From assembly GCA_032718475.1 (NCBI GenBank), contig JAUCBJ010002469.1:1-46889 (forward strand): 46,889 nucleotides of DNA, in the 5' to 3' direction. The stretch is from Nemertoderma westbladi. Taxonomy: Eukaryota > Animalia > Xenacoelomorpha. Shown here one piece after another: positions 11,790-42,238 of the stretch. Numbering within the stretch: position 1 is the first letter of the stretch; each line of letters begins with the position of its first letter. The position numbers and the translations under genes are program-made. The notes below the pieces were generated by a model. That model was not told the origin of the DNA. It did not search any database and was given only the letters and a program-made list of their open reading frames with translations.

Positions 11790-12380
11790 AGGCAGATGGA
11801 AGTTAGTTAGTTAAGTAGTTAGAAGGTACGTAGTACCGTTAGGAGTTAGTAGTTAGAAGGTATGTAGTACCATTAGGCAGATAGTAAGAGTTAGTAGTTA
11901 GAGGGTACATAGTACTGTTAGTTAGTTGGAGAGAGTTAGAGTTAGTAAGAGGGTACGTAGTACCGTTAGTTAGTTGGAGAGAGTTAGAGTTAGTAAGAGG
12001 GTATGTAGTACCGTTAGTTAGTTGGAGAGAGTTAGAGTTAGTAAGAGGGTACGTAGTACTGTTAGTTAGTTGGAGAGAGTTAGAGTTAGTAAGAGGGTAC
12101 GTAGTACCATTAGTTAGTTGGAGAGAGTTAGAGTTAGTAAGAGGGTACGTAGTACCGTTAGTTAGTTGGAGAGAGTAAGAGTTAGTAAAAGGGTATGTAG
12201 TATCGGTTAGTTAGTTAGTGGATTTAGAGGTTAGTAAGAGGGTACATAGTATCGGTTAGTAAGAGTTAGTGGAGTTAGAAGTTAGAGGGTACATAGTACC
12301 GGTTAGTAGAAGTTAGTTAAAAGTTAGTAAGAAGAGGGTACATAGTACCGGTTAGTGAGAGTTAGTGGTAGAAGGGTATA
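11790..12380 (+). repeat. 48-bp tandem array between pol and ORF2 in copy A
   Basis: Unit GAGTTAGTAAGAGGGTACGTAGTACCGTTAGTTAGTTGGAGAGAGTTA; the GGGTA core recurs at 11951, 11999 and 12047. About six good copies with degenerate flanks. Confidence 0.9.
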
Positions 12381-12860: not shown

Positions 12861-15428
12861 ATGGTGGGGAAACTGATCAGGAAGAGAAAGGCGGAGTCAG
12901 GAGGAAAGGAGATACTGGTGGATTTCACCAAGAGGCATCCGGAAGAGAAGACAAGGGGATACTATGAGCGGTTAGAGAGAGGTCATTAAGCGCAAGCGCT
13001 ACAAGACCATTTCAGGGAGGTGCACAAACAGTGGCTGGTCGGGACCTACGGGACGCCGTCGCTGGACAATGCAATCTTCGAGCATTTCCTCTACGTGATG
13101 AAATGAGATGAGGTGAAGTTCGGGATTCCGAAGTATGCGAGAGAGCCACCGAGGAAAAATTGGAAGAGGTTCGTAGAGTCCATCAGCAGAGAAGGATACA
13201 TGGTCCTAGACAATGAGGGGACCGTGGAAGACAAGGAGGGTTTGAGGAGAGGATTGGCGGGGTCGGCTAGAACCATACTCCTACATTTGGCTGCACCAAA
13301 TGGGGATATATTCCTATTCGTTCTAGGAACGTATGGAAAGAAGGACGGGCCAAAGTTGAACCGGTTGCCGAAGGCGGTGCAAACCCTAGTGAGAGAGAAG
13401 TCAACGACGAAAGTGGGATCGGCGATTCGCGACCACGCGGAGAGAATCATCGGTCCGGACACCCCCAACCTTCTGGATATGCAGACGGTCTATATGGCTA
13501 TGACAGCACTAGACGGGTTGGGACTAGTGGAGAACACAGGACATTGCGGGGCGGTAGCAATGGGCCAGCTAATGGGGCTCGTGTGTCACAAACCGATGGA
13601 TTGGAGCAAGTTCAGAGAGGAGTACGGAGCGGACTTGGAGAACTCGCTAAAGTGGGGAGTGAGGCCAGGGAGACAAGAGCTGTATCAATTCCGGAGAGGA
13701 GCGATAAAGGTATATCAGAATCGATATATCCTACAGGAGGACTGGATAATGATAGGTTTGCTTAACCTATTCATGACCGTGGTTATCGAGAGGGAACCAA
13801 CGGCATTCCTATTATCAGGATCACCCCTAAGATACAAAAAAGCCTTTAAGATGGCTTTCAAGGGTCTGGTAGACCACCCGGGGATGAAGGGCGAGTCGGT
13901 GTACTACAACAGCCGAAATCTGGTAGACGGGGAGGTAGATACGCCGTATCAGAGGTGGGAGCAGCTAGAGGCGGATAGACGAGAGGCAAAGCGATTGGAA
14001 GAAATCGCTAAAAAGGAGAGGAGGGAAGCAGAGGAAAGGGAGGAGGAAGCTAGGGCACAGAGCTATGGCTTTGAGGAACAGGCGGCCTTAGACAAACTAT
14101 GTTGGACATCGTCAGGGAGTTTGGGGGAGTCTCTAGGGCGAGAATTAGGATGGACGGTGGGATCACCGAAACAGTCGAAGTCGGGATTGCAGGCGACGCC
14201 CATACCAGCGGGCGCCGAGGGAAACCAGCCACTAAGGAGGCTAGGGGAGCTGGAAGGATGGAAAGTTACAGGCGAGAGCCAAGGCGGGAAGGGACACAGT
14301 GGGTCCACTGGGATACTGGGGTTGGAGCCACTGCCAGAGGAGGATGAGGACGATGACGAGTTCGGAGAGATGCTGCCCATCGGGAGGATCGGCCACTCGG
14401 ACACGGACTGGGTTGGCGGGAGGGTGGTGACGGCCAGTGGGGCGAGGGCCTTCTGGGATAAACCTGGCAAGCAGGCCTGGGTGCATGAGGAGCCGGCGAT
14501 GGATTTCGCGGGGAGCGCTATCAGGTTGGGCGAGCAACCGGGGACGGCACCACGGGAAGTATTCGGAGAGACAATGCCCGGGAGGGGCAAGGAGATCGAT
14601 GTAGACAGGGACGCTAACGTCCGGAAGTTTGCTTACCAGCGACTCCACAGACCACGGAGATCGCTTGGGACGAAAGACGGCGTGGGGCGGGAGACATTGG
14701 TGCTCGGCTGTGACTACTGTGGGAGACAGACCCACCAGGAAAGGAGATGTTTGTACCGGTTTCAGAAAGGGACTAGTTGTCTCTACTGCCGCGAGTCGAG
14801 CCACAGGAGGGGGGCGTGTCCACGGTTGCACAACCGGTGTTCGAAGTGCAACTTTTGGGGACACTACGGATGCCAGTGCGACTGGATGGACGACAAAGAG
14901 AAGTTTAGGATCTTTGAGGAGTGGGCCGACATCTGGGCCATGACTCGGCAACGCATGAAGGCCCAGGAGTTCCAGTGGGGCTTCTTTAACATCAACCAGG
15001 AGGCCCACATGGAGATTATCAAACGGAGGCTTCCATTTACCTACCAGGAAGTGGCGACGGCAGCGTCGTATGCCGGAGTGATAAATACGCAGAGGTATTT
15101 GGACAGGTGGATGCCACAGAACAGAGGAGAGTTCAGGGATTTCTTGGCGGAGCATGTGCCGCGGGCGATGAAAGTGATCCTATGGGACGCCACCAGGGGG
15201 AGACAACAGGGCTATTCGGAGGGGACACCCACGAAGCGATACCGGGAGCTAATAACACCGGCGCCCAAGGAGTCGACGACCGGGATTAGTAAAGAGGTGA
15301 TGGCGAGGGTCAGGAGCCTAAAGGGCGATAAGACCAAAGGAGCGGCAGCAACCAGGAAACGACCGAGGGAGGAGGACGACAGAGGGAAAGAGTTGAGGTG
15401 GTTCCCGAAGTCAGGTGGAACGAACTAA
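12861..15428 (+). CDS. Accessory ORF2 of copy A: DEDDy-like 3'-5' exonuclease domain, coiled coil and three CCHC zinc knuckles
   Basis: A 771-codon open frame at 13113-15428, with an in-frame ATG at 12861 separated from it by two stops. Motifs VLDNEG, LLHLA..G.IFLF, LPKAV..LV......KVGSAIRD, LLDMQ and YQNRYILQED; three CX2CX4HX4C knuckles at 14709-14879; basic RKRK at the N-terminus and RKRPR near the C-terminus. Confidence 0.8.
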
Positions 15429-16123: not shown

Positions 16124-16703
16124 TGTTAGCGTATTCAATTCCGCTAACCAGGCCCACACAAAGTTGGTTTTAAGCAATATTGGGAGCACGAGGTTGATTA
16201 CCAATCAACCTCGTGTCACCCCAATAAGCGGGGACAACAGGCCCCAAGGGAACACACACAGCAGGGGTCAGAGGTTACACCTCCGGGAGGGAGAGAGAGA
16301 CAGCAGCGGGGGGGAAGCACTCCCAGGGAGATGGGAGGGTGAGAACTGAGTTATTCGCCAATGGGGGTAAGGCATCCGCTGAGTAATGTAACACGGCCAA
16401 TCAGTGCAATATATTACCGGTTCTTGTGCCAATTTCATTCACTTAGTCAGTCAGTTTTAGTTAGGGTAGAACGGGAACTCTTATTACCGTTCACTGCCGT
16501 CATCCATAATTCAGCTTTACCGGTACAATTATATTCTACAATCGTGCTTATACTTCACTTGTTAATTCTACATTTTATATATATCATCTTACAACAAAGT
16601 CGGAATAATTATCAACAATCTAGAACTCTTTTCATACACATACGGCGGGGAACGCGTAAGTCTGATAACCGGATAAACTGGGATCCTTGGTGGATCCCGT
16701 ACA
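16124..16703 (+). repeat. 3' LTR of copy A
   Basis: Direct repeat of 4109-4686; ends GGATCCCGTACA, one base shorter than the 5' copy. Confidence 0.93.
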
Positions 16704-17330
16704 CCAAATATTACCTACATACAAGCTAGTTTTTGATAATTTATTTTTCGAAATGTTCCAGAACATGTTAGCTAATTATTTTGAAAAAATTAACGTTCTA
16801 GAATAAATAATTTATTAATGGTGTAGTACAAATATTATATTAATTTTCTAGAACAAATATTATATTAATGTTCTAGACCTAATATTATATTAATGTACTT
16901 GAAAAAATATTTTTTGTACATTTTTAGACAGAAGACTGGTTTGTATTTAAAAAGCATCGATTTGGTTCTAAAACGTGTCAAAAATCAAAAATAATTTTCA
17001 AATTTTTCCATTTTCAAAATTAATTTAATTACGGTTGTTTTATAACTTCTGGATCTCGTCTTTATAGTAGTAAATTATTTTCATGTTTGTTTGTTGCCTG
17101 GAACTCTAGCCGGCATTGGTACACCGTGGTACTAATAGTTTGATCTATTATTTTCATATCAAAAAGGCTTTTATCATAAGGTTTTTTTTCTATAACAAAT
17201 AAATGACGTACTGACAGTAGGTTGGTAGCTGATAATTTTGATTTTGTGTCATAGCTATGTAGTCCTATTTTTAGCTAGAGAAAAATATTTATTTTAGATA
17301 GTTTTTTTTATAATTTTTTCTTGCGAAAAT

Positions 17331-19089: not shown

Positions 19090-20897
19090 GAATATCAACA
19101 TACAGTCATTATAAATATGAGGAAGATATTAGAATGCTCCTGGAGCATATTCCTCACCAGAAGAGTCCTCATCTCTGGGTCTCTTCTTTGTTCAAATGCA
19201 AGCAGTTCTCTGAAGACAATCTCGATTGGAACGCTTGATCCGGATATCATCCAGTTGTTGCAATCCATTCACAGAATATTGTCCTGCATATATTCCGAGT
19301 TTCTCTAGAACTTTGAATCTTGATATATTTCCAGAGTTAAAGCATGATATAGCATCATATGTCCCAAGCTCAAGAGTTTTATATCCAACAAATACCCGCT
19401 TGGGGCAACAAACCCAGATTGAGTTATTGACACTCTCATTACAATTTTGAGTTTGCCCATGTAAGCACTTCCTCAAAAGATTCAAGTTTGATAGATCTCT
19501 GAAAATTGGTCGAATCTCATCCATAATTGCAATTGGAAGTGAATGTTTATGATTATAAGCTTCTCCAGCAATGAGGGATTTGTTGTATCCACACCAGGTG
19601 TTATCCTCTTTGGGGCATAATCCATGTTGGGGATTCTCATTTGTGGACATCTTATGGAAACGGATTGCTTGGACAGCACAATGCATTGCTTGAAGATCAT
19701 GGGTATTTCGTCTAATTGCCATCCCATAGTAGAGTTGGAGAGAGTTTATGGTATTGTCTGTAAGCCGGTTTCTTCCTCCTATTGTTTTACTATCAGATAA
19801 TTTCTTACCCTTGAGAGAGGTCTTTTAGACGCCGCAGTCTACATCCCATCCTTTTCTGTACATGCCCAATGCATTATAATTTGGTTATTGAGCAATCACT
19901 TCCATATGGTTGACTATTGGTCACCGTAGAAAACGAACTACTATCTCCATAACCAAGATATTTTGTATATCTAACACCATACATATCCACAGAGCGATTG
20001 AACATCATCTTGGCACCTACAACCTCCATTCCACCGCTTGTACCTTCATAGTTTTTGATGCAGATCTCCTTGTGTGCATCTTTCACACTTTGAGGCTGAG
20101 ACTGAATCTTGATGCAACCATGGCAGAATTTAGAGACACATGCACATCTGTGACCTTACCAGTATCCATTGATGTCATTGTTACAACTCCATTGAGAGAC
20201 TTATGTCCTCGACGTTGCCAACTACCATCAACACATACAGCAATATCAGTGGCATTATCATTGGCATTTACTGAAACAGTTTCCAATCAAGCATCCTTCA
20301 TAGTTTCTTTAGCTACTGCTTTGACTGCTGGCAGAATTACATCATAGGTTCTTTCAAAATGCTGAATGGGAGATTGTATACCCATTATTGCAGCAAATGT
20401 TTTAGCTCCTTGGACCTCATTCCATATGCAAAACGAAGATTGCTCTCATAGTGTGTCCTGCCCTTCTTGTTTGTGGATACTTTTGCCGGAGGTGATGAGT
20501 CAAATGGTACATAATTGAAACAAGAATGGCATTTCAATTGGAAGTTTGAAGCCAGTCCACACTGTATTTGTTTTTCAATTGTGATATTTGAACCATGGCA
20601 ATGTTGACAGCAAACAATTTCAGAAAGAGCAATATTCAATAATTCTATGTCCATAAGTTCAAACCCATCCCTAGATGAACTGTAGTCAGGAAATCCTAGA
20701 GTTCCAGGAACAGCAGCTATCTTTCTACTAGAAGCTGATTGTCGCTTATTAGTACCAGTTGTTTCAATAGGGACAACTTTTGCATTGCTTTCAGTGGCAG
20801 AACTACTGCACTGAGCACTACTGCCGGTACTGACTGCTGGCTTGTAACGGTTTCCTCTGAAACGCCGTTTCTTCATAAAGCTTGAACATCGGGGCAT
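19090..20897 (-). pseudogene. DDE transposase pseudogene (Kolobok-type; often labelled Mutator-like)
   Basis: Fragments CQHCHG..CHSC, VCVDGSWQRRGHKSLNG, GTSGGME, YTKYLG(Y)GDSSSF, CIGHVQKRMG, YYGMAIRRN, HGLCP....WCGY and TQNCNESVNNSIW..PK, broken by frameshifts and stops. Confidence 0.85.
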
Positions 20898-21779
20898 CTT
20901 CAAGCAGGTACGGACCAAGGTGTGTAAGTACCATGTAGTAAAAAACAATCAATAAATTATATCACAGAAAATAGTTGGATAGTAGTCATATATTATAGTT
21001 ATCTAAAAGCTTATAGGCCTACTTGTAAATATTTTCTGTTTTTTTTATGGCAGTATGGATATCATTGGGTACCTACTCCTACAACCATATTATACTAATA
21101 TAGGCCTATAATTTACAAAATCAAAACTTCTGCTACAAGGTACAAATGTATGAAGATGTATGTGTTTTTCAGATAGGCAGTCAAACTATAGGAGAGTACC
21201 GGTACCTCAAACCCTCAAAAAGTGTGTAGGCCTATATGATATTGTGATAGCAGCTTTAGGCCCTGTTTGTAAGCAGAATATAACATTGATTGATGACAGA
21301 CACATACATATAATATATAATGTTTTATAAGATCTTCAGACTCTTCAAAGAAAGTTGTCAAGTAGCGAAGCGATTGAAACAAGACAGTAACAATGTCACA
21401 CATTAGACTGAAAATTTTACTAAAAATAACGGCAGTGATTTTTTATGTCCTTTTATTTGACTTTTTTTGTCCTTTTTTTTACGAATTATGCATAATGACT
21501 TTTGTTGTTTTCTTAATGACTTTTATTGTCCTTTTAATGACTTTTTATGTATGTATTTCTTCAAACTGTCAGACTGCTGATTTCTGGACTGTCAGACAGT
21601 TGATTTCACTATGCCTGTGCCAAAACATTCCATGATTCCATGATTTATAGACTATGAGATAGATTTCCATATGCGCCTGTGGCCTGTGGTATTTAATAGT
21701 TTGTGGTTGTTGTCGATGATCGATTACCACATGACGTAGCAAAACACTCATTTCATAGCCAAAAACAATTACCAATTGA

Positions 21780-22279
21780 TGGAAAGGAGCTGGTTAAGGC
21801 CGAGTTTTCTAACCAAAACAATAAACAGTCACTTTTCCAAATCAGGAAAAGGAGCAGGTTACAAAGACGGGATTTTCTAACCAAAACAATAAACGATCAC
21901 TTAACTAATTGAGGGAAAGGAGCAGGTTACAGATGCGGAATTTTCTAACCAAAACAATAAACGATCACTTAACTTATTGAGGGAAAGGAGCAGGTTACAG
22001 AGGCGGGATATTCTAACCAAAACAATAAACGATCATTTGACTAATTGAGGGAAAGGGACAGGTTACAGAGGCGGAATTTTCTAACCAAAACAATAAACGA
22101 TCATTTAACTAATTGAGGGAAAGGGGCAGGTTACAGAGGCGGGATTTTCTAACCAAAACAATAAACGATCATTTTACCAATTGAGAGAAAGGAGCAGGTT
22201 ACAGAGGCGGGATTTTCTAACCAAAACAATAAACGATCCTTTAACTAATTGAGGGAAAGGGGCAGGTTACAGAGGCGGG
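21780..22279 (+). repeat. 68-bp tandem array (~7 copies) inside the Kolobok-type element
   Basis: Unit TTTTCTAACCAAAACAATAAACGATCATTTAACTAATTGAGGGAAAGGGGCAGGTTACAGAGGCGGGA. Confidence 0.9.
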
Positions 22280-23484
22280 CCTTCTGTGCTGTTGGAAGTA
22301 GTGGTGCCGCTATCCGTAACACTACTCAGGACAGTAGTCATGATCCATTATTGATTATAAAACTAATACAGTAATAGGTCTAAATTATGTGAAAGGTATA
22401 TCCACATTTTCCACAATCCTGCAATCCAGTTTGGCCTATCAATTATTTCAAATGTATTAGCACAACCGGTAGGCCTACCATTACCGTATTTAAATGGTAG
22501 GCTACACAGTAGGCCTATAGCAGTACCGGTGCCAGTACCGGTACTAAAATACAGAAATATCTGCTTTATACCTACATCTGTACATACAATACAGCAAAAT
22601 AGTGCTATATATACTAATACCGGTACTGATAGCCTGAGAGAACATCAGTAGAGAAACCGGTAGCATGGAACCTAACATTAGACTTTTGGAGGACATAAAA
22701 AATCATAAAAAAAGGACAAAAAAAGGATTTAAACGGACAATAAAAATTATTGCGAAAAATAACTGCAGAAGTAGAAGTTTGAAATTCCCTCCATCATATA
22801 AATTGAAGAAAATGTTGATTTGAAACTCATAATAACAGCATCTATAGATACTGTATTTGACAGATGTATTGTTTGATAAAAAGTAAGTCAAAGTCTCAAA
22901 AATCCATCGGACATACACAAAAGCGAGGCAATTTTTACAATCTTCCTGTATTGATATGGACTCAAAATTTTACCACAGTGAAGACCATATGTGAATCACC
23001 AAAAAACAATCAAAAACTCAATTTTTATTTTTTTTAAATATTTTAGTGGTGTGCTGCCCTAACAGTTTAATCTGCTAATTTATTTGTCTTATAATACCTG
23101 ACAGCCCGTACAAATATGAACACAGCCGAAGCCAGTCTGTGCGGCGTAAACCCACTGGAGGTGGGAGACTGGATTCTATGGCAGAGAGAGATGTAGGCTA
23201 CTTTGTATTATTCGATTGATCTTTACTATATAATCTCTAAAAACTATGTATATTTTAAGTTAAATACTAACAGTTCCTTTCAGGTGCTGCGCTCACACTT
23301 ACACAGATGACACGTTCGTAGGGTCTTCGCGCAGCACTAAGTGAGCAAAGCCTTTATCATATGGGTACCATTAACGAGTTGTCTGCAGTTAGTCAAAAGT
23401 CTTCAATACAATACTCGTCCTCCTCTTGTGCCTAGTTGCGTTCGTTCGTTTTTGACGAAACTTCAGATTCTTTCTAAACTTTGA

Positions 23485-23754: not shown

Positions 23755-25992
23755 TGTTATTTGAGCTATTCAATTGGGAATAGTACTCCCCTCCGCTTAC
23801 CTCAATAAATCATGAAAACCAAGAGATCTACCGGTTATTCGTAAGTATTCTCCAACTATTAGCATTAATCATTAGGTTACAAATCACAATATATTATAAC
23901 AGCATAAAACAGTATAAAAGATTCGGTGCGGCAATATCAGCAGTCAGACATCAGTAAGTCAGGATATGTTGCAATATGAGAATGTCAAGTATGAATTGTA
24001 TGTAAACGTAAATAATGTAAGTTAATGCAAGTGGAAAGAGTATGTTAAGTATGTAATGATAATAGATTTGCGTTCGGTGATTTATCTGGCCGCTGATGTT
24101 TCTGAGCGAAAGTCAGGAAGTGTATATAAACTCACTGAAGGAGTTGCAGCAATGTCCTTGCATGAAGTAATCAACAAGGCATGAATCACCATCGAATGTC
24201 ATAGAATCCATTGAATCAGGCAGAACTCCAATCAGGGAATCAGTAACCATGCCATCCATCCGTATCCAGGGGATTCGGTAATTCAGTCTATGGCGTGGCG
24301 TAGAGTGGAAAGTATACTGATTGGATGGTAAATAATGCAGAGACAGGGGGACAAAGATAAATACTGTCCCAAGGTTGGTGATTTCTAAATCTAAGCAGCT
24401 GTTTCCTCTAAGAGTGTATGAAAAGGTTCTATTGGTGCCTACTTAGAATAAACGCTGGATGGAGTGAGTTTATGTCATAAAATATAAAAATTCTTATTAA
24501 GGGGTTTTAAGGTTTAGAGTAACCAGCGCATTGTGTCAAAAGGGGGACATTATGGCCGGAAAAACTTTAACCCTATCACCACTGGGGCGGGGGGGGGGGG
24601 GGGGGGGGGAATCGGTCCCTTCTTAGATTTTAATTTCTATATCTCTGCAACCACATTATGTACCAGCCCAATTTTTTACGAGAATTAGTCAAATTAAATG
24701 GCGCATCTTTTTCAGAAAACGGCGTTGCAATTAGATTTCAACTTTTCGATGTGGGTGCCACCTCAAAATTTGGTCACCTGCAGAAATTGTTTTGAAATTT
24801 TCGAACTTTATAAGGTCATTTGTGAGGTAGTAATTCTTTTTTTTATTGATTCTAATTCGTATGGATCACTCTACTACTCTATATCTGTATGTAAGGGAAG
24901 TGGTACGTCATTTTTGGTGCACTAAAATTAAGGCGTGCACTTCAAATTTTCAAAATTTCAATATTTATCTAATACTCCGAAAAGTTTTGATTTCACCGCA
25001 TTTTTAATGGGTTTTCTGGCCCTCCTAATCGATTGAAAGTAATATAGAAGACTCAATTCTTAGAGGTACATCATTTTTGGTGCACCAAATTTAGGGCGTG
25101 GCAAGTTTTGCATTAAAATTTTCAAAATTACGATATTGAGAAAATACCACAAGGTTTTCATTTCAACCCATTTTTATAGGTTATCTGGACCGCTGAATCG
25201 ATTGAAAGTAATCTTGAAGCTTCAAGTCTTAGTGGTACGTCAGTATTGGTACACCAGAATTAGGGCGTGGTACTTTTTCAAAATTTGAATAAGTGCTACT
25301 CCCTAATTTTGGTGCACCAAAAATGCCGAACCACTAACTCTTCAGGCTTTTATAATACTTTCATTTGATTCAGCGGTCCAGAAAACCTATAAATGTGCGT
25401 TGAAATCTAAACTTTTGTTTATTTTCCGAATCTCTTGTATTTTTCAATATTTGAAGTGCCACACCCTAATTTTGGTGCTCCAAAAAAGACGATCCACCAA
25501 GTCTTCAGGCTTCGATAATATTTTCAATCGATTCAGCGGTTCAGAAAACCTATAAAACGAGTAAAATCAAAAGATGGGGGTATTTTCTGAATATCGTATT
25601 TTTCAAAATTTGAAGTGCCACGCCCATTTCTTAGGTGAACGAAAAATAGCATCCAGTTTAATTTCCGGAAAAATGGAATATAATCACATTCGATCCAGCG
25701 TAGTAAAAAACCTACTAATGCTAGCCAATAATGCCACACTATCAGTTTTTAGAATATCGAAAAAATGTATATTTTGTCCTGGGACTACTTCTATTTTTCA
25801 TAAAAATTATTATACCCACCTTAAGAAATTTTCATTTTTTTGGATCCGAAAATGTTCTTCGATAATTTTTTCACCTAAAACCCAAATATTGTAGGATTGT
25901 ATTGTATGATTACAAAAATACAACGGAGGGCGAAACGATCCCTTGCCAGTGGTGCTAATGGTCTAAACACCAAGGTGGTAATAGGGTTAACA
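23755..25992 (-). repeat. 3' LTR of divergent minus-strand BEL/Pao copy E, interrupted by a TTAA MITE
   Basis: Removing 24571-25986 gives, on the minus strand, a purine-rich tract GGGAGCGG followed by TGTTAAAG...(~820 bp)...GAGTACTATTCCCAATTGAATAGCTCAAATAACA, with TGTTA/TAACA ends and a terminal hairpin. No partner LTR is in the window. Confidence 0.6.
24571..25986. mobile_element. piggyBac-like MITE with internal foldback repeats
   Basis: TTAA|CCCTATCACCAC...GTGGTAATAGGG|TTAA. About three direct internal units (TTTTTGGTGCAC...GGCGTG) are mirrored by inverted units around ~25290. Confidence 0.85.
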
Positions 25993-26072
25993 CCGCTCCC
26001 AGGAAATGGGACTTAAGTCTATAAAATATACATAGAGTCACAATGTCTTAATATAATAACTACTGTAAACAA

Positions 26073-28752
26073 TCAATCCTTCTTTCTAGAACGACTTTTA
26101 CGGAGTTTCTTGAAACTTCGGGTAGTTGTAGTATTTTTCTCCGCAGCACAAGCCACTTTAATAGGAGGGCTATAACTCCTCGGAGAAGGGTGCAATATAA
26201 TTGCAACAGAAGGGTTGGGGTTGCAGTTGGTGTATCCGCCGGTCGAGGTACCTGGTTGGTCAATATCAATAGGAGCTCCACTTCGAGATTATAAGGAACT
26301 TCGATATCACACGTTTATTGGAGGATCGAAGGGCGCACGATCTTTAAACCTATTAGTACCGGGCTATAAAATGTTGTACAAATACCAGGGGGGGGGGGGT
26401 GTCGGATTGACCCCCCCCCCCCCCCCCCCCCTCTAAAATCTACAAATTTTTACGAAAACGTCTGATATTTTGTATGTACGTAGGTATCACTAGTGTGAAT
26501 CCGACGCGAAAACAGAATTTTCGAAAAAATGTACTGGGGTGGTTATATTGCAGCACCAAAATTACAAGTAGTGTACAATTTTCACAAAATTTGAAAGATA
26601 CATTTTACGGCTAATTGTTTTTCAATATAGGTTTTCTGGGACGGAAAATACATTGGAAATATTTAAAAATTATATGATTACTATAAATAGCTGTTTAGTC
26701 CTCTCTGCGTAGGAAAAATATGAAAAAAACAAATATAGTTTTCAAAATATGGTGCTAGCACCACATTTTGCACCCACTTCCGAAAAATACAAGTTTGAGA
26801 TGTCTAGTTTGATAATTATAAATTTTATTGAATTCAGAATAGCCGTAAAACTCTAAAATGCAAGAAATAAATTGTCACAAGCAATTTTATCTATTGAGTG
26901 GATTTCCAAAATTTCGTGCTAGCACCAAAATTTGCACACAGCACCGAAAAATACAAGTTTGATACGGTGCTGGCACAAAAAATTGGCACACGCCGAAAAA
27001 AACAAGTTTGAAATTTCTAAATCATTTATAGGAATTCAATCCAATTGCTAACACCAAAAAACCGGTGTAAATCAAAAATAGAAATGTTACAATTCATATT
27101 TAATGAAATGTAATTATTTTCAAATAACATCTCAAAAAAAAGTGCCAAAAGTAGTGTTAAAAATGGTGCTATAACTCGAAAACTACTCAATATTTTTGAA
27201 AACGGTTTTCACTACTAGGAAGACAATATATTTTTAGGAATAGTCATAAAATTTCAGATTCCCAACTGCGTTTGTTTCAGAATTATAATAAAAAAACCAC
27301 GGGGTTTAATAGGGTTAAAGCTAGTCTCAGTACAGCAGCTTGGACTGGTCATCCTGCTTTAGTCGTCTGCATGACTGCCATCGGTTGGCCGTGAGTCGTA
27401 AGGAATTTTCGGGGTTTCACAGTTCTTTCTTATTCCCGTTCCCTTGCCTTATATTCGTAGGGACGTCGGTGGACTTCCTGCAGCTCGGGGTGTGCATTTA
27501 TAAATTTCTCACCGTATTCCATGTCTTGGCTAATGCAACCAAGTAAATTATATAAGTCCAGATTATTCGGTTTGATATTCTTTAAATATTTTCTCACATA
27601 TTTGGTGGAAATATACTCACCAATGCGTTTTAGTAATTCATAACTGGGAATACGAGTTTTCTGCTCGATTTGGAGAAATAGATAGGGGTGAAATGCTTAC
27701 ACTCCCTCATAGGCGCGTCCAGGATAGTAACGATGTCGCGAGTCGCATTGAAGATCTGCGCTAGCTTCCCAAGCTCATATGTATGGCCACACAATTAACT
27801 CGTCTACGCTTTCCATGTCGGGGCTAAAAGGGGAATCCCAACTAGCGTATCCTTTTAACTGACAATAGTGATATTGCGTCATAAACTGGGGGCAGACAGC
27901 AAAGATGTGCTTATTATTAACATGACAATAAGCACAATATATCCCCATTTGGGGTTGGTCTTTGAAGTAGGAACAGACTTCATCAGAGGTCAACAGGGTA
28001 GTGTGATCGTGAGAGGCGCATATGCGGCAGCGCTTTCGAGAAATGTGGCTGGCGTGTCTATAACCATAGGCAGTAAGACTTTTGCGGTCCTTGATACCAC
28101 TCCAGCGTGTGATCATCGTCACTACTACGAGGGGCTATTGGCTGGATTTCATCCACCTCCATACAGATCGGTTCCTCGTCCGTCTGAATAATTCCTACGG
28201 GAGTAGTTATTCTTTGCCCAGGGTCGACAGTTTGTATTTCCATAACCGAATATCCAAAAATGATTTTAGGTCTCTGCAGAATGGGGGAATGCATATTCCG
28301 TATGCACACATCTTTGAAAATAGCAAATCCGGCACTATCTAATTTCTCAGCAGCTGAATAACACAGGTTGAGTTTTGTCAGGCACGGTTTTTAAACTGAC
28401 TATCAACGTTCCGAAAGGGAGTCAGAAAACGCCTGAAACATTCAAATCGGATGAATTTGATGTGTTCATCTAATTTTGTTTGTTTAGTTCCAAGAATTAA
28501 TGGGTGTGAACGGATGGTTCAACTGCACACACCGGCTAACAATCCGGAAAGTGTGCTATTTTCGAATATGGTATAAAATGGCAAAGGAAGGACAAAGGGG
28601 CACAATCATAAAACTATCAACTGCTCCAGGTGCCGTCAATGGTCCATCGAAATATGAACGTGAATAATGGTCGCCATAAACCTTCTGGTAATTAAGCGGA
28701 TTTCCAAATTTAAAGTTACATCCATACTTTTAATACGCTAAATGTCCGACAG
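26073..28752 (-). pseudogene. Divergent homolog of accessory ORF2 in copy E, interrupted by MITE 26348-27314
   Basis: Manual translation: GHLAY*KYGCNFKFGNPLNYQKVYG; CRICASHDH...C, CAYCHVNNKHIFAVCPQFMTQ(Y)HYCQLKG(Y)ASWD(S); AWEASADLQCDSRHR; basic end FKKLRKSRSRKKD*. These blocks are colinear with ORF2 of copy A. Confidence 0.7.
26348..27314. mobile_element. piggyBac-like MITE
   Basis: TTAA|ACCTATTA...TAATAGGG|TTAA, a subterminal polyG-loop-polyC hairpin, and internal GCTAGCACC/GAAAAATACAAGTTTGA repeats. Confidence 0.8.
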
Positions 28753-29359
28753 TGTAAGCGGAATCAATTCCCTGCACTACCCACCAAAAATGGGCTTAGT
28801 GGCATTTTACAAATTATAGTTGGGAAGGTGACATTACCAATAATAATGTCACCTCATAACCAACTTAGGCGATACACATCGCCAGCCACAGAGAAAGTTG
28901 AGAGGTCAAACCCTCTCAGAGGGGTAAAGGGGCTAGCAGGGGTTAGCACGTGGGGACAGTGGCAACAGGGAGTGGCGAGGTGACAATTAATCAGGTTAGG
29001 CAATGATGGGAGGGGAACACAGATTGGGAGCGATTAGAACGCATCTACTGGCCAGGTCACTCAATACCGTAGCAGTGATTAATATGTGTTAATAATATAT
29101 AACCGTTGCACTTATTGATTCTGATTCAGTTGTTATCTATACAGTTGTGAGACTGGAACAGTTTTTAACCATTGTCATTACCGTGCTATTATATTCTGAC
29201 TGTGTTATTATTACGTTCTGAGATTATAACAAAACTGACAGTAAAAACTCAGTTATTTCCATGGCCTCCGGCCTATTATATATATCCAGACCACAGCTTT
29301 TAGCAGCCTACAAACACCGGTCGGGATCCATACTGCCAACTCTGTTGGATCCCGTCACA
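28753..29359 (+). repeat. 5' LTR of BEL/Pao copy B
   Basis: Runs TGTAAGCGGAATCAATTCC...GGATCCCGTCACA (same terminal motifs as A and C) and is followed by gag. Confidence 0.85.
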
Positions 29360-29421
29360 GTTAAAAACCGTCAACAACTCAACAACCATTTAAATAAACT
29401 GTGACCCCAACCAGCCCCAAC

Positions 29422-30474
29422 ATGAGCAAACACGAGATGCTCCAAGGTCCAGAGTAAGAGACGAGCTTGCCATGAACCCCGAGCGACAGAGACAAAATGA
29501 TTCGTGAAGCAGCGACGAGGCGGTACCAGCCCAAAACACCGGATTTGCCAACAAGGGATGCTCCAGTCATTAAGGAGGAGAGTGGCCGAGTATGAGGAGG
29601 AGAAGAGAACGAGTAAATGCGAGATCAGAGGGCAAACGAGCCGAAGTCGCTGGCCAACCATTGGCCAAAGGCGCCAAATGTTGATCGCGCAAACAAGCAA
29701 ATGAGGTCGAATGAGCAATCACCTACAACAAGGGTACAATGCCACAAGGAATTTGTTGAAGGACACTAGAGAGGGAGGAAAGGTAGACCAGCCCAAGTTG
29801 TACCGGAGGCTAGGTGAGTGCAACAAACATTTTCACTACCTAGTCCGATTTGGGCAGGGGGAACTAGCAAGTGAGAGGGCGAGGGGGTTTGCCACAGAAC
29901 TGTTCAAATTGTGGCTATCTGAGGTGGTGGCGCCTAGTGTGGTGTACATAGGGCCCTATCTAGTAGATGCAAGGGGGATTTAGTTAGTGGGATGGGCAGA
30001 CCAGCAAGACACCAAACCCGAGGTTAACCCCGAAGATTCAGTGTCGTCGGTTAGTAGGAATGCTAGTTCCATTAGTAGGACAAACAGGCAACGGGAGTCC
30101 GTCGCAACCGAAAAGTCCACTACATCCTCCACAAAAGCAAGAAGGGTGTTAGAGATAGATCTGGCGTGTCATCTAGACATTGTCGCGCTGGATCAAAAGG
30201 AACTAGAGAGACAACTGGATGAGGGGACTGCGTTACTAGAAAGGGAAAGGGAGATAGTGAGAGAATGTAAAGATAGAGCCGAGAGGGTGACGAGAAACTG
30301 TAGAGAGCGGGATGAGAGAGAAATGAATGAGTGCAAAGAGCATGAGGAGCGGGAGACAAAAGAGGAAAATGAGCGCAAGGTGCGGGAGGCGAGAGCATTG
30401 AAAGTGAAGCAAACGAGCGTAGAGAGCGGGAGGCGAGGGATGCAGAGTTACCTGATCAGAGTATTAAAAAGGAT

Positions 30475-30506
<32 letters not shown>

Positions 30507-30629
30507 TCTAGTAAACGTATGAGGGATGATATGCATTCGCAGTTGAGGGGGTTAATGCAATATCAGGCAAAGCAGAAATGCCGATTAGAACTGGCAAAAA
30601 TGGGTTTATCAGAGAGAGAGGCTGGTTTG
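29422..30629 (+). pseudogene. Truncated gag 5' region of copy B
   Basis: Homologous to A and C: IREAATRRY, RLGECNKHFHYLVRFGQGE, VVYIGPYLVDARG, VNPEDSVSSV, LDQKELERQLDEG, LMQYQAKQK. Confidence 0.85.
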
Positions 30630-31545
30630 GTGGTGCACCAGTGTTAAAGCCCCCGATGACCCTTGGTCATCCTTCGGTACACATAATGGCTTACCATCTG
30701 CCCTCTGCCAGCCCTGTGTGCAACACGTCTCCTCTAACTAACTATCCTGTCTCCATTGTCTCCCTTCGTCATTGGCTCCTCTTCCTTTGGATTAACCTTC
30801 TTACATCCTCTCTTTTTCCACCTTGTCTTCTTATTCGACCTCCTTAGTATCGGTAAATTCTTTATACCCTCTAAGATTGGCGTCTCTTCCGGACATCTCT
30901 CCAGATACCTTGCCATCCACTCTTCCCCATACCCATACTGATACTTGCCAGGAACGTCTTTGTCCCATCCCATTGCCTCTAGGTCCTGTGCGTCAAACCA
31001 ATTCTCCTCCGCCCACTCCCTTGCTGTTACTTGTCTCCTCTACCAATGGTACTTCTCCAGATTCGTCCTCTACCATTTCCACTATACGTGGATCCAGATC
31101 CATACCCACCCCAACTCCTGATATCCTTTCCCGGGCTGCTTCTCATATGGGACCTTCCTATCTCCCATCCTTGACTTGTGATATCCTTCCTAAACGGTAC
31201 TGGACAGCATGCATCCAGATGTTTTGCATACGCCAAACACTTTGTGTCATTGCCAAAAATGGTTTGTAGCCTCTCGTGGGCTGTCGGACAATCCATGCTG
31301 ACTATAAGAGATACTTTCGGGACAACCGGTTCGGGCATGGAGAAGTCATTGTCGATTGCTCTATATCAATCTTTGTAGGTCGCCTGGCGTTAATGTTGAT
31401 CGACTCTATTATTTTTATGGGTTCAATCATAGCCCTATAGTCGCACCCTGGTGTCATCGCTTCGATTCTACACTGTTCTGTCATTATCTTCATGACCGTG
31501 ATTTTGCTGGAGATCGTGGTTACTGTCATTTTACTTGGCCGCAGT
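30630..31545 (-). pseudogene. Inverted fragment: protease C-terminal region of the same family joined to an unassigned coding-like segment
   Basis: VTTISSK...PGCDYRAMIEPI...ININARRPT, VSLIVSMDCPTAHER and KTSGCM match copy A. The stretch 30630-31180 has no recognisable match. Confidence 0.7.
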
Positions 31546-31549
31546 AGTG

Positions 31550-32552
31550 AGATGGGGAGGCCATTCCTTCTCTTCTTTACTTAGCAAGTCAGAGCCACCT
31601 AGCCAATCTGGCGTATCTGTCAGATCTTTGGGTGTAGCTCCTCTGGAGGCAATGTCGGCTGGATTGATAGTCCCAGGGCAATGTCTTCATTGGTCTACTT
31701 TAGTGTGACTAAGTATAACAGCTACACAGTTAGTAACAAAGCCACTGAACTGGCAGACTTTGTTAGTCAAATATTCTAGAATGAGCAATGCATCTGTCTA
31801 ATAAACAGTTTTCTCCAACGGACATTCTATCTGATTGGTAATATTCCTGCCGATGGTGGTTGCGCATAATGCCGCATTTAACTCCACTCTAGGGACCCAC
31901 TGTTTGTTGTTTATCAAAGCTTTTGAGGCGGTCAATGAAACTTTAATTCCTTCCGGAGTTTTGACCCTCAAATAGGCTACTATACCTATTCCAATATTGC
32001 TGGCATCTCCAAACACGTGGAGTTGATTGGAATAAGTGGGGAGAACGTGACCGAAATATGAGCGGGAAATCTTAAAGTCCTCAATAGGTGGTAAAGAGTC
32101 TTTGCACTTCATCCACTTCTTCAACAGTTCTCCCTTGAGAGGGTCATCCCAAGAGTGGTTTTCGAGCCACATTAGCTGGACTAGACTCCAAGGAACCAGG
32201 ATTACAGGACTAATAAATCCTTACGGATCGAAATACGTGCTCAGAATACTCAGGCAAATCCTCTTAGTTTGAACAGGAATATTGCATTGTTTTAATTGTA
32301 AGAACAAAATATCCCTCTCTGTATCCCACTTCAGTCCGAGGGTTTTAGTTTCCGGGAGGTCTTCTTTAAGGAGGTCGAGATCTTTAGCACCTCGTTCCTT
32401 TTCTGGGATCGCCTCCAGAAACTCACGGGAGTTGCTGGTGAATTTAGTTAATCAGAATCCACTGCATTGAAGACACTCTAGCATTCCCTTGGAAAATTCT
32501 ATAGCTTCTTCCACAGTAGGTAGTGACTTGAGGTTGTCGTCCATGTAGAGTA
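31550..32552 (-). pseudogene. Divergent BEL/Pao RT C-terminus and RNase H fragment, possibly the pol of copy E
   Basis: LYMDDNLKS, TKTLGLKWD, STYFDP*GFISPV, SWDDPL, LHVFGDAS, PRVELNAA, *TDA and RHCPGTINPADIASRG. Confidence 0.85.
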
Positions 32553-33639: not shown

Positions 33640-34224
33640 TTTGAGCGGATTTAATTCGGCTTCATTACCCTCATAAAATGGGAAGTGGCAGTTTCAGCAA
33701 TATATCGGAGATATGAGATTATTAGTAACTAATCTCGTATCACAACCAATATTGGGGACAGTACAAACCCCAAAGCCACGAACAAAGGGAGGTTAGAGGT
33801 CAAACCACCTCAGAGGGAAGGCAGCTAGCGGGGGCTAGTAACAGGGGGGGAAACACTCCCGGAGAGTGAAAGGGTGAGAAACAGGTTGTTAGCCAATAGG
33901 GGCGAATGAGAGCATCCACTAGGTAAAGGGCCACAGTAATTTAGCTGTATAGTAATATTGGTGTGTCGTATATTATCAACTTGCATACCTTTATTAGTTC
34001 AGTTTATCCAGTTACCGGTTTCAGTGCAGACGGGCATCATTGTTTTACCATCACCATTACTGTCACTATCACTGTCATATTGGTTTACAATATTATCTGT
34101 CATCAATAACTCTTGTACTATTATACATAATGTCGAAGGACAACATCAATCTTGAACTTTTCCATCACACCGGTGACGCGTACGAAACAAACTTACCCGG
34201 TCGGGATCTACCGATCCCGTCACA
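33640..34224 (+). repeat. 5' LTR of copy C
   Basis: Direct repeat of 43002-43591; starts TT instead of TG and ends GATCCCGTCACA. Confidence 0.93.
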
Positions 34225-34280
34225 GTAAAACAATCACCAACTATCGCTGAAACTGGGACTGCAGACGAGTAAGTAGAAAG

Positions 34281-37200
34281 ATGAGTTCAGGAGAGCCCCG
34301 AGAATCAGAGGGAGAAAGGACGCCGCCGCGGACCCCAGACGATACCAACCAAACGATCCGCAATGTTGCGACGAGACGGTACCGACCAGAGACGCTGGAT
34401 TCGCCGACGAGGGATGATCCGGTACCCCAAGTGGAGGGCGGCTGTCAACCACAAGAGTGGGACGAGTCGACGCACGACAGCAGACAGAGTACCGAAGTTG
34501 CCAACCAGCCACAGGCCGAGGGCGATGGTCGGCCCACCGGAACAGCAACGGTGGGGCCGCCAGTACAATGCCAAACCAGGAGAGGAGGAGGAGATGTCGG
34601 CGAAGAGGACGTCGGGACCAACAATCGGCTTCGACGGGCCTACAACGCCACGAAGAAACAGTTAAAGGAGGCCAGAGGGGAGCAAAGGTAGACCAGGCCA
34701 AGTTACATCAACGACTAGGTGAGTCGAATAAACATTTCCAATACCTAGTTCATTTCGGGCAAGGAGAAAAGGAGAGTGAGAGGGCGAGGGGGGTCGTCAC
34801 CAAACTATTCAAACTGTGGCAATCCGGGGTTATGGAGCCTGAAGTAGTGTACGTAGGGCTGTATTTAGTGGATGTTAGGGGAATTAAGTTAGTGGGTTGG
34901 GCAGATCCGCACAAGGGCAAACCCGAGGTTAACTCTGAGGATTCGTTCTCGTCGGTTAGCGAGAACCCCGGAAAATGGGGGAAAGTTAGTAAGACAGAGG
35001 GGCGACAGGAATCCGTCACGACCGATAAGTCCACTACATCCTCCGTGAAAGCAAGAAGGGTGTTAGAGAGATCTGGTGTGTCAATTGGACATGGTGGCGC
35101 TAGACCGGAAAGAATTAGAGAGGCAGTTGGATGAGGGAACTGCGCTGTTGGAGAAAGAGAAGGATTTGGCGAGGGAGTGTAGAGAGAGACCCGGGAGGGT
35201 AGCAAGAAATTGTAGAGAGCAGGAAGAGAGAGAGGCAGAGGAACGTAAGGAGCAAGAAACGAGAATAGAGGAGGAACGCAAGGAGTGAGAAGCGAGAGTA
35301 GAGAGCGAGCGTAGAGAGCGGGTTGCGGCGTAGAGAGCAGTTGGCGAACCAGAGTTTGCAGGAGGATAGGGAAAGAGAGAGAGCGGGAAAGCGTATGCAG
35401 GATGATATGCATGCCCGGCTAAGGGGGCTTATGCAATATCAGGCCAAGCAGAAGCGCCGACTAGAACTGGCGCAGTTGGGACTATCAGAGAGTGAGGCTG
35501 GCTCGGGTAGTATTTACGAGGAGCCAGAAGTTATGGAAACGTTTGTTAATATCCCACTTACAGGCGCCAGGCGACAGAACCAGAACTGGTGTAGCCGTAC
35601 GGGCGGGGGGGGGTAATAACAATACGTTAGAAGAAATTAATATTAATAGTACCGTAGTAGACAACCCTAACCAAACTTTTATTACAGGAAATAATATTTT
35701 ATCCAGTAATTCTAATTTAAATACAAATAATCCAAATAATAATATTAATTTAAATATACAAAATAATAATTCTAATTCAAATATTCAAAATAATTCGAAT
35801 AATAATTTAAATTTAAATATACAGAATAATTCAAATAATTTGAATAATTTAGAAAATAATAATATTGATAACAGGGCTATTAATACTAATATAGGAGACA
35901 TGGATGGTCCGGCCAACGGTAGCCTGCAAGGCAACGAAGTTGGTACGCAGGGAGTAGCGGGGCGAGATACCCCGACAGGAGCCTGCAAGGCCACATATTT
36001 AGGCAGGGAGTAGCGGGGGTGAGTCAACCCAACAGGAGCCTGCCAGGCCACGCAGTTGCACAGGGAGAGGCGAGGGTGAACAGACCCAGCCGCAGTAGAG
36101 ACAGTGCGTTGACTAAAGTGATGTGTAGAAGCAAAGTAAGAGGTAGTGAAGTAAGAAGTGGCGAGTGGGGGGGGGGGGGCTACGGGCGCCCCACCACGGA
36201 AGATTATTGGCGAGAGAGAGGGGGGGGGGGGGGGGCAGAGAATGCCCCACAAGAGGGGCATAGAAGCGAAGTAAAAGGTAGTGAAGTAAGAATTGGCAAG
36301 TGAGGGGGGGGGGCTACAGACACCCCACCGCAGAAGATTAGTGGCGAGAGTCGAGGGGGGGGGGGGGGGCAGAGAATGTCCCACAAGAGGGACGTCAAAC
36401 TAAAGTAAAAGATAGTGAAGCAAGGGGTAGTGAAGTAAGAAGCAACGGGTGGGGGGGGGGGCTATGGGCGCCCCACCACGAGAGATTAGTGGCGAGAGGG
36501 GGGGGGGGGGGCAGAGAATGTCCCACAAGCGTCGGCAGATAATGCGCAGGGCAAGTTAAGTGAACCACAACACCCGACGACGGAGAGTAGTAGGGGGATG
36601 ACGAGTATCCCCAGAAGGGTCCAGACGGACAGAGAGAGAGATGTTAGCGCCGAGAGTGGGCGAGCGAGAAGAAGTCAGTCGGAAGAGAGAAGAAGAATGG
36701 TAGAGTTTAACCGGGAGGTCAAAGAGAGAAGAAGTGAAGAGAGTAGAAGAAGCGTTGCTACAAGAAACCGGAGAGCAAGGATGGATAGCAAGCCGTCGGT
36801 AGTAGAGATGGAGTTAGGAAATCAGTGGGGTCGAGCTCCATGAGATTGCCGTCGACCCAGAGAGTCGCACCGCACACCAGAAGAAGGGTACAGAACGTAC
36901 CGATATGAAGATGAGAATAGGAGAGGGGATCGAAGAGAAACTTCCCGATGTGATATAGCTGCCGATCGAGAGTACGGTAGTAATGGGGAGGACTTCTTAA
37001 ATTATTTGAGAAGGTTAAACTTCTGTCCGGAAGGACACATACAGACTGCAGGACATACTGCAGGCCTTACTGCATATACTATAGGCCATGCTGGAAGAGA
37101 TAGTGTAGGCAATAGGATAGCGCAAACAACAGGATTAGATCCGGAAATCATCTCGTATATACCGATAGGTAGTCAAGAAGTGGATAGGCCTATATCGGTA

Positions 37201-40200: not shown

Positions 40201-41439
40201 GGGCGCGGAGATCCACACAAAGAGAGGCTATGTATCGTACATAGCAAGGATATATGATCCCTTAGGCCTAGCCTCCCCATTGTTAGTCACGGGGAAGTGA
40301 TACTTAAGAAAGTATATAAGCTAAAGGACGAGTGGGATACGGAGGTACCGGAAGAAATAAGAAAGCAATGGAATAAATAGACGGGGAGTTTAGAAGAGAT
40401 GGGGACGTACAGCATGCTACGCGTGTATTTCCCGGATGGGGACATGACGGATCTGGACTTACACATGTTCTCCGATGCATCATTGGAAGCATACGGAGCA
40501 GCACTCTACCTAGTACAGTGAAAGGGGGCTTATAAGCCCAGACTTGCATTCAGCAAAACAAAGTCGACGCCACCAGATTCAGTGTCAGTCCCGAATCTTG
40601 AGTTGACAGCTGCAAGATTAGGAGTAAGGGCCACAGCCTACTTGATGGACGCAATTCCCAACATAATGGAAACACATTACTGGACGGACTCCATGGTAGT
40701 GGTCGGGTGGCTGCACAATGAGAAGACGATAATACCCTATATTTGTCATGAATAGTGTGGACGAAATAAGGGTGACGACAGACTTGGAAAGGTGGCACTA
40801 CTGCCCAATGGACGACAACCCAGCAGACTTGTTATCGAGGGGCGTGGCACGCCACACTTTCTCAAAGAAGGAAGTGTTGTGGCAGCACGGGCCACACTTC
40901 CTGAACGATAGGTCGGCCTGGCCACCATTGAAGAAGGTGGACCCGGGCTCAGAGGAAGTAGCACCAGAAGAAGAGGGAGAAGATTCAGAAGGAGAAGAGA
41001 TATATAGTTAGAAATATATCTGAATCTAGAAGAGCCATGCGACAACCCGACAGATAGGTTACTCAGCTACAGCTCCAGCTGGTAATAGACCAAGAAGTTG
41101 GTAGAGTGGAGTTGGTAAGTGGAGTTGGTAAAAGTTGCCAAAGCAATAAGCGCAGAGTACTGGAGGAGGTGGGTCGAGTAATACCTACCCACGTTACACA
41201 GCAGGAGCAAGTGGAGAAACACCACTAGAGAGTTAAAGAAAGGTGACTTGGTGATCGTCACTGACAACACAATCATCAATAATCAGAGGAGGCTAGCAAA
41301 AGTAGTAGACACTTACCCCAACGAGGACGGAAGAGTCCGATCGGTGGAAGTGCGGATATGGGGTAAGATAAGAGCAAAGGATAGGAAGACCTACAGGAGG
41401 GCAGTAGGAAAGTGCTGCCTACTAGAAGGGGCACCATAG
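34281..41439 (+). pseudogene. gag-pol of copy C: many stops and frameshifts, a deletion in RT, no integrase core
   Basis: Colinear with copy A (LVDSGAAFTLV, FYVDD, HMFSDAS, NPADLLSRG, YWRRW..YLPTL..RSKW). The KLRMVVDASAK block is missing at ~39605. Confidence 0.93.
36125..36535 (+). repeat. Triplicated ~135-150-bp G-tract unit in gag of copy C
   Basis: GAAGTAAGAA...polyG-CTA...GATTA(G/T)TGGCGAGAG...polyG-CAGAGAATG occurs three times; copy A has one copy (~6870-6965). Confidence 0.75.
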
Positions 41440-42193: not shown

Positions 42194-42238
42194 ATGGCTG
42201 AGAGGTTAGTAAGGAAGAGAAAGGCGGAGAGAGACTGA
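42194..42238 (+). pseudogene. N-terminal stub of accessory ORF2 in copy C
   Basis: MAERLVRKRKAERD* versus MVGKLIRKRKAES in copy A, at the same position after a conserved hairpin. Confidence 0.7.

What the first reader, a model, noticed from the sequence alone, without database searches (positions are those of the whole stretch)
23755..28752. Hidden, highly divergent second copy of the exonuclease-knuckle gene in a different BEL element
Seen after removing two TTAA MITEs, on the minus strand: GHLAY*KYGCNFK...YQKVYG (A: GAVAMGQLMGLVCHK...FREEYG); a frameshifted FDGPLT..EQL..FYDC segment resembling ExoIII; CAYCHVNNKHIFAVCPQFMTQYHYCQLKGYASWDS (A: CLYCRESSHRRGACPRLHNRCSKCNFWGHYGCQC, with C>Y, H>Y and C>S each one base away); WEASAD....RHR (A: FEEWAD....RQR); a basic C-terminus; then a hairpin, PPT and an LTR unrelated to A-D. 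A divergent BEL RT-RNase H lies upstream on the same strand (31550-32552). Inference: the accessory gene is an old, maintained part of a BEL lineage, not a one-off capture.
Basis: partly seen in the sequence, partly recalled or inferred. Interest (0 to 1): 0.8.

Follow-up and report, generated by a model that had tools for sequence, protein, structure and literature searches.

The report
Exonuclease accessory gene in BEL retrotransposons
This stretch is a broken fossil copy of an extra gene, a predicted RNA-trimming enzyme joined to zinc fingers, which many BEL-type jumping genes carry intact behind their core genes and likely use to handle RNA or blunt host silencing.

Summary
The homology is real. 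Profiles built without element A or the candidate find a triple-knuckle module plus its downstream domain at 28038-27729 (minus strand, iE 1.4e-9; gag knuckles score a third as much). A short exonuclease remnant at 28752-28665 is modestly supported; the frameshifted ExoIII piece is inconclusive. Both TTAA MITEs check out. The LTR and PPT are plausible but unverified (no second LTR, no TSD). The link to the BEL RT-RNase H at 31550-32550 is only colinear: element C interrupts, integrase is missing, and trees cannot place either piece. In 30 of 32 metagenome loci with at least 4 kb upstream, the gene follows a BEL pol on the same strand. Its distances track RT-RNase H distances (rho 0.88), and dN/dS is 0.09-0.64. 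A's domain folds like DEDDy nucleases (EXD2, Nibbler, RNase D). One clade lost the catalytic acids but kept the gene. My searches found DEDDy ORF3s reported only in rotifer gypsy and Athena elements, not in BEL. Function is untested.

The parts
28623..28752 (-). Remnant of the second half of the DEDDy-type exonuclease domain (after ExoII), one frame, one stop; cut at 28752 by element C's LTR
   Evidence: Position-specific score above 218 of 218 background windows with two profiles; weak by hmmsearch
28560..28622 (-). Possible ExoIII helix, broken by frameshifts
   Evidence: By eye only; scored inconclusive
28080..28559 (-). Linker-like region with stops; acidic patch; no scored homology
27729..28038 (-). 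Triple zinc-knuckle module (third knuckle decayed) and the family's following 'FE.FAD.G..T..R' segment; one in-frame stop
   Evidence: iE 1.4e-9 with a profile lacking A and the candidate; SW 68 vs 32+-4.6; alignment
27319..27728 (-). Continuation of the C-terminal domain in the same frame, with stops
   Evidence: Pairwise alignment to A runs to about 27560; alignment
26344..27318 (.). MITE-like insert 1 (26348-27314) with TTAA duplication and imperfect CCCTATTA-type ends
26073..26343 (-). Lys/Arg-rich putative C-terminus with two stops
   Evidence: Translation; no scored homology; basic tails are common in relatives by eye
25993..26011 (-). 5-bp hairpin and weak polypurine tract
23755..25992 (-). 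Putative 3' LTR, about 818 bp without the insert, TGTTA...TAACA ends; unverified
   Evidence: no second copy in the window
24567..25990 (.). MITE-like insert 2 (24571-25986), TTAA duplication, 11 of 12 terminal bases inverted, internal palindromic repeats
28753..30650 (+). Element C (A-family): 5' LTR 28753-about 29358 and start of gag, inserted into the ORF
   Evidence: LTR similar to B's; gag similar to A's
30650..31545 (-). Inverted A-family protease-region piece
   Evidence: 61-64% amino-acid identity to A on the minus strand
31550..32550 (-). Divergent BEL RT (from the YxDD motif) to RNase H, truncated at both ends, four stops; link to the ORF only colinear
13107..15428 (+). Reference: ORF2 of element A, 773-aa open stretch, DEDDy-like domain plus triple knuckle

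Best explanation
The region is a decayed copy of an accessory gene that many BEL/Pao retrotransposons carry intact between pol and the 3' LTR, encoding a predicted DEDDy-type 3'-5' exonuclease, a linker and a triple zinc-knuckle domain, and it likely sits in the 3' end of an old BEL element hit by two MITEs and by element C. Shown: family membership of the knuckle module; the gene's place behind pol in intact elements; its co-divergence with pol; purifying selection. Inferred: the relic's LTR and its tie to the upstream pol. Mechanism (inferred, untested): the protein, likely made from its own subgenomic or spliced RNA, would bind RNA through the knuckles and hold or trim 3' ends in the nuclease pocket, most likely to blunt host small-RNA silencing of the element (about 0.4 of the functional odds). 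RNA binding would be the core role, since one clade lost the catalytic acids but kept the gene. This copy is dead.
For: Homology. Family: 28 hits at E<=0.001 among 1.84 billion proteins, most sharing the module. Context: 75 of 80 loci with flanks have the knuckle-domain ORF; 43 of 75 have BEL gag-pol homology upstream on the same strand, 3 only downstream, 0 only on the opposite strand, 29 none (27 of them with under 4 kb upstream); 30 of 32 with at least 4 kb upstream. 12 of 12 long upstream ORFs scanned carry Peptidase_A17 and DUF5641. A PPT-TG junction follows the ORF in 11 of 15 elements examined. Co-divergence: Spearman 0.88 for 25 loci, 0.85 for 18 after thinning, 0 of 2000 permutations each. 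dN/dS 0.09-0.64 in 8 of 9 pairs, one saturated. Fold: A's N-terminal domain matches EXD2, Egalitarian, NrnC, Nibbler, RNase D at E 2e-4 to 1e-3; Atlas lead PF01612 + zf-CCHC at 0.85. Four catalytic acids kept in 26 of 43 rows that cover ExoI; 12 rows of one clade lack them.
Against: The exonuclease remnant in the relic is weak and its ExoIII piece inconclusive. The relic's pol and ORF are unplaced: its pol groups with A/B in a FastTree run (0.86) and loosely in a 37-row tree, but not in the 62-row tree; its nearest database relatives (35-38%) are BEL proteins of unknown context, closer than the ORF2-bearing pols (26-34%); its pol and ORF distance profiles do not correlate (rho 0.10, p 0.62), though A's do not either (0.05), so that test has no power here. 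The AlphaFold model is poor overall (mean pLDDT 45.6; 50-74 over much of the N-domain) and the Atlas score is under 0.9. Many loci share contig-name prefixes, so they are not independent. No activity or expression data.
Confidence: 0.7

Rival explanations
1. Same gene family, but the ORF-LTR relic and the RT-RNase H piece come from different BEL elements that met in a nest of insertions and deletions.
For: C and an inverted piece lie between them, integrase and half the ORF are missing, the pol is truncated at both ends; trees do not tie them.
Against: Same strand and the family's order (pol, ORF, PPT, LTR), as in 30 of 32 informative loci; one clade of all ORF bearers including this pol is not rejected.
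Confidence: 0.35
2. The family protein is mainly an RNA adaptor for export, localisation or packaging of the element's own genomic RNA, like Egalitarian or the CERV protein of Cer1, and nuclease activity is incidental.
For: A clade of 12 rows lacks the catalytic acids yet stays under purifying selection (dN/dS 0.17 and 0.28); Egalitarian is the second fold hit; CERV seen as a search listing only (PMC10309623).
Against: 26 of 43 rows keep all four acids over deep divergence, which argues for catalysis in most lineages.
Confidence: 0.3
3. The nuclease works on the element's DNA or replication intermediates (proofreading or trimming cDNA 3' ends).
For: DEDDy enzymes can act on ssDNA (PMC5408684 passages); plastid polymerase exonuclease domains are among the fold hits.
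Against: Most fold hits are RNases or RNA binders; it is a separate ORF, not fused to pol; most BEL elements are described without it.
Confidence: 0.12
4. The likeness is only to generic zinc knuckles, by chance.
For: tblastn finds nothing; one profile matches only two knuckles; identity to any relative is at most about 31%.
Against: True gag knuckles score 10-11 bits against 33; the match runs past the knuckles into the family segment; the exonuclease remnant lies upstream in the right order and strand.
Confidence: 0.03

Closest known systems
DEDDy ORF3 of bdelloid rotifer Juno and Vesta gypsy-type elements and Athena/Terminon elements (Rodriguez et al. 2017, PMC5408684; passages read)
   Same: A DEDDy 3'-5' exonuclease gene downstream of pol in an LTR retrotransposon; function untested; RNA 3'-processing or silencing roles proposed.
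   Different: Here the carrier is BEL/Pao; the protein adds a triple knuckle and an unnamed C-terminal domain; it co-diverges with pol over deep time, whereas the rotifer ORFs were described as acquired at least twice and exchanged. Sequence kinship to the rotifer ORFs was not tested.
Belpaoviridae / BEL-Pao elements with env-like third genes (ICTV profile PMC8742986, whole text; PMC3118150 and PMC9094657, passages)
   Same: gag-PR-RT-RH-IN order, LTRs, short PPT, an extra gene behind pol.
   Different: The extra gene is a nuclease-knuckle protein, not a fusogen; 'exonuclease' occurs 0 times in the main text of PMC3118150 and PMC9094657 and not in the ICTV profile.
Cellular DEDDy proteins EXD2, Nibbler/Mut-7, RNase D, NrnC, Egalitarian/EXD1
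   Same: Fold of the N-terminal domain; D-x-E, D, Y-x3-D/E pattern; both active and inactive branches.
   Different: 11-17% identity; no Pfam hit in A's ORF2 or in 11 of 11 loci ORF2s scanned; mobile-element context.

Membership tests
Exonuclease-triple-knuckle ORF family (A's ORF2) | Triple C/H knuckle module followed by the FE.FAD.G..T..R segment | tested here: met
   iE 1.4e-9; third knuckle decayed
Exonuclease-triple-knuckle ORF family (A's ORF2) | N-terminal DEDDy-like domain upstream on the same strand | tested here: inconclusive
   Only about 30-45 codons survive; above 218 of 218 background windows but weak by hmmsearch
BEL/Pao (Belpaoviridae), the relic | BEL-type RT-RNase H | tested here: met
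   Peptidase_A17 E 1e-25; all 120 listed hits carry PF05380
BEL/Pao (Belpaoviridae), the relic | Two LTRs with TSD | tested here: inconclusive
   One LTR-like end, no partner in the window; no genome held
BEL/Pao (Belpaoviridae), the relic | PPT of about 10 nt before the 3' LTR | tested here: inconclusive
   GGGAGCGG before TG; departs from the relatives' form
BEL/Pao (Belpaoviridae), the relic | pol and ORF belong to one element | tested here: inconclusive
   Colinear only; trees unresolved
BEL/Pao (Belpaoviridae), intact relatives | gag-PR-RT-RH-IN polyprotein upstream of the ORF | tested here: met
   12 of 12 long ORFs with Peptidase_A17 and DUF5641; 30 of 32 informative loci
DEDDy 3'-5' exonucleases (family protein) | DnaQ-like fold | tested here: met
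   Foldseek E 2e-4 to 1e-3 on a moderate-confidence domain of A's model
DEDDy 3'-5' exonucleases (family protein) | ExoI D-x-E, ExoII D, ExoIII Y-x3-D/E | tested here: met
   26 of 43 rows; A has them by eye (one column off in the alignment); 12 rows of one clade lack them. ExoI and ExoII are absent from the relic.
DEDDy 3'-5' exonucleases (family protein) | Metal-dependent 3'-5' activity | not testable with these tools
   Needs an assay
Rotifer retroelement DEDDy ORF3 | Shared ancestry with Juno/Vesta/Athena DEDDy ORFs | not tested
   Their sequences were not in hand; supplements not opened
piggyBac-like MITEs | TTAA duplication and CCC-starting inverted ends | tested here: met
   Insert 2 clear, insert 1 imperfect; the piggyBac label is recalled

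The most novel reading that the evidence does not exclude
A large, unreported group of BEL/Pao retrotransposons has carried its own Nibbler/EXD-like nuclease with a new triple-knuckle domain since early in BEL evolution, as an encoded counter-defence that trims or sequesters host piRNAs and siRNAs; one branch turned it into a catalytically dead decoy.
Probability: 0.3. Interest if true: 0.85.

Novelty: new variant of a known kind. Interest (0 to 1): 0.62.

Why it matters
Accessory genes of animal LTR retrotransposons are usually taken to be env. Here a conserved non-env gene with no Pfam match follows pol in dozens of BEL elements and evolves with it. It offers natural active and inactive versions of one nuclease, so the open question of whether animal retrotransposons encode their own silencing suppressors or RNA adaptors becomes testable on a purified protein. 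The relic itself adds one more deep branch and little else.

Tried and rejected
tblastn of A's ORF2 against the masked window: nothing in the region. Word-indexed homolog searches with A's ORF2 and with a knuckle alignment: 0 hits among 7996 and 2769 candidates; the second missed P0018, a known relative in its length range, so these blanks carry little weight. Single-sequence fold of A's N-domain: pLDDT 36, unused. Viral contigs: 0 pattern matches, 0 loci. Earlier findings: none. No whole genome and no read data were available, so no intact copy of the relic could be sought. The iE 0.008 exonuclease hit was discounted because it ran into C's LTR. The FastTree grouping of the relic's pol with A/B was not accepted (lost). 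The knuckle-domain tree leaves the relic on a 4.5-long branch with no supported sister. Left out of profiles: P0021 (generic knuckles), P0023, P0028 for the knuckle profile; 40 of 120 loci had no flanks and were not counted for context; trees used 62 or 37 of 148 pol rows. L008, L032, L072 (weak knuckle hit, 507 aa, no pol within short flanks) remain unexplained.
Full report
Setting. The window is eukaryotic repeat-rich DNA with nested BEL/Pao elements: A (LTRs about 4109-4686 and 16124-16703, 95.5% alike), B (about 33642-43591, 94.9% over aligned columns), a fragment C from 28753, and an LTR D from 46401. A carries a 773-aa open stretch behind pol on the plus strand (13107-15428) with no Pfam match. 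No whole genome is held.

Is the relic real? The quoted peptides are present. tblastn misses them. Local alignment of A's residues 530-700 scores 68 against 31.9+-4.6 in shuffles (0 of 300) and tops 342 tile-frames, where the next region scores 47. A phmmer search of 1.84 billion proteins with A's ORF gave 28 hits at E<=0.001. They define a family: a DEDD-like domain, a variable linker, three C/H knuckles and a conserved segment FE.FAD.G..T..R..WGF. A profile of 25 of them, without A or the relic, finds 28038-27729 at iE 1.4e-9, while gag knuckles score 10-11 bits against 33. A profile from 103 loci sequences matches only the first two knuckles. The relic is therefore a family member, with the third knuckle decayed and stops in frame.

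The exonuclease part is thinner. C's LTR begins at 28753, so only the last part of the domain can survive. Pairwise it is not significant. hmmsearch on the relic's own DNA gives 5.1 bits with one profile and nothing with another. A position-specific scorer ranks the first 30-45 codons above 218 of 218 background windows with two profiles, and above 100 of 100 shuffles with the one tested. The ExoIII-like piece beyond the frameshifts is inconclusive.

The 3' end. Both inserts have TTAA duplications. After a basic tail come a 5-bp hairpin, GGGAGCGG and TG; an 818-bp stretch (without the insert) ends in TAACA at 23755. It is unrelated to the LTRs of A, B and C and has no partner, so it stays a candidate.

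The link to pol. Upstream lie C's LTR and gag start (plus), an inverted A-family protease piece (30650-31545), then the RT-RNase H fragment, cut at both ends. Integrase and half the ORF are gone. Order and strand fit one element. Trees do not settle it: FastTree joins this pol to A/B at 0.86, a 62-row IQ-TREE run does not, and a 37-row run leaves a loose group. Holding all ORF bearers together, with two proteins of unknown context, is not rejected (p-AU 0.534). I put the link at about 0.6.

The wider claim. 75 of 80 hold the knuckle-domain ORF. 43 of 75 have BEL gag-pol homology upstream on the same strand, 3 only downstream, none only on the other strand; among the 32 with at least 4 kb upstream, 30 do. 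Many are open throughout: a 2000-2400 aa gag-pol, then a 700-1300 aa ORF. 12 of 12 long gag-pols scanned have Peptidase_A17 and DUF5641. A PPT-TG junction follows the ORF in 11 of 15, so it lies inside the element. The 114 knuckle-domain sequences fall into 97 clusters at 90% and 54 at 60%, but many contigs share name prefixes and are not independent. RT-RNase H and knuckle-domain distances correlate (rho 0.88, 25 loci; 0.85, 18 thinned; 0 of 2000 permutations), and the two trees share their subgroups. Kin share traits, so this shows joint inheritance, not functional coupling. dN/dS is 0.09-0.64 in 8 of 9 pairs, one saturated. B keeps only the first 14 or so codons of the ORF, so single copies do lose it.

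What the protein is. An 11-row AlphaFold model of A's ORF is poor overall (pLDDT 45.6) but usable at the N-terminus. Foldseek returns EXD2, Egalitarian, NrnC, RICE1, Nibbler and RNase D at E 2e-4 to 1e-3. The Atlas lead agrees at 0.85, a lead only. 26 of 43 rows keep all four acids; 12 rows of one clade lack ExoI and ExoII acids yet show dN/dS 0.17 and 0.28.

How it likely works (inferred). The knuckles would bind RNA and the DEDDy pocket would hold or trim 3' ends. I favour counter-silencing (about 0.4), by analogy to Nibbler/Mut-7 and EXD1 in small-RNA pathways (roles recalled; partly in PMC5408684 passages). An adaptor for the element's own RNA is close behind (0.3); DNA-end work is less likely (0.12). 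Nothing here tests these.

What is in print. PMC5408684 (passages) reports DEDDy ORF3s in rotifer gypsy and Athena elements and says they had not been reported in retrotransposons before; PMC5718144 and PMC6431247 (passages) repeat this. PMC3118150, PMC9094657 and PMC12451622 (term look-ups) have 0 occurrences of 'exonuclease'; the ICTV profile PMC8742986 (whole text) lists only gag, pol and env. Nine searches (listings only) showed no BEL exonuclease paper. The term 'BEL Pao' matched 0 times in the listed papers, so those two were weak. Subscription journals, Repbase reports and supplements were not seen, and could hold a prior mention.

Verdict. A real, dead, very divergent copy of an apparently undescribed BEL accessory gene. 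The gene family is the result; the relic's tie to its neighbouring pol is open.

Noticed in passing
window 11400-11680 and 40850-41450: A and B both lack the integrase core: RNase H runs almost directly into the integrase C-terminal segment, with different breakpoints. Both may have moved as non-autonomous copies.
   Followed up: partly
window about 42180-42225: B keeps only about 14 codons like the start of A's ORF2; the rest is deleted. A's ORF2 seems to begin near 12860, with two in-frame stops before the 773-aa stretch.
   Followed up: partly
window 4687, 29359, about 34223: The 5' LTRs of A, B and C are followed by GTAA/GTTA rather than a TGG primer-binding site, unlike several relatives that show TGGCGCC. 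Priming may be unusual.
   Followed up: no
window 4104-4108 and 16704-16708; B flanks: A shows no matching target-site duplication; B appears to have TCCCC.
   Followed up: no
L002, L007, L021, L031, L033, L034, L037, L039, L062, L065, L068, L069: A clade whose exonuclease domain lost its catalytic acids but stays open and under purifying selection.
   Followed up: partly
L005, L015, L043, L051; P0001: Very long versions of the ORF (1300-1600 aa) without Pfam matches; P0001 has the knuckle module twice.
   Followed up: no
L008, L032, L072: A 507-aa ORF with a weak knuckle-profile hit and no pol in short flanks; may be another context.
   Followed up: partly
window 19192-20948 (-), 2-484 (-), 21729-22347, 11847-12230: Mutator-like transposase remnant, a reverse-transcriptase fragment, a 68-bp tandem repeat, and a 48-bp tandem repeat between pol and ORF2 of A.
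   Followed up: no
P0112: A BEL polyprotein labelled as Streptococcus in its source; likely host contamination of that record.
   Followed up: no
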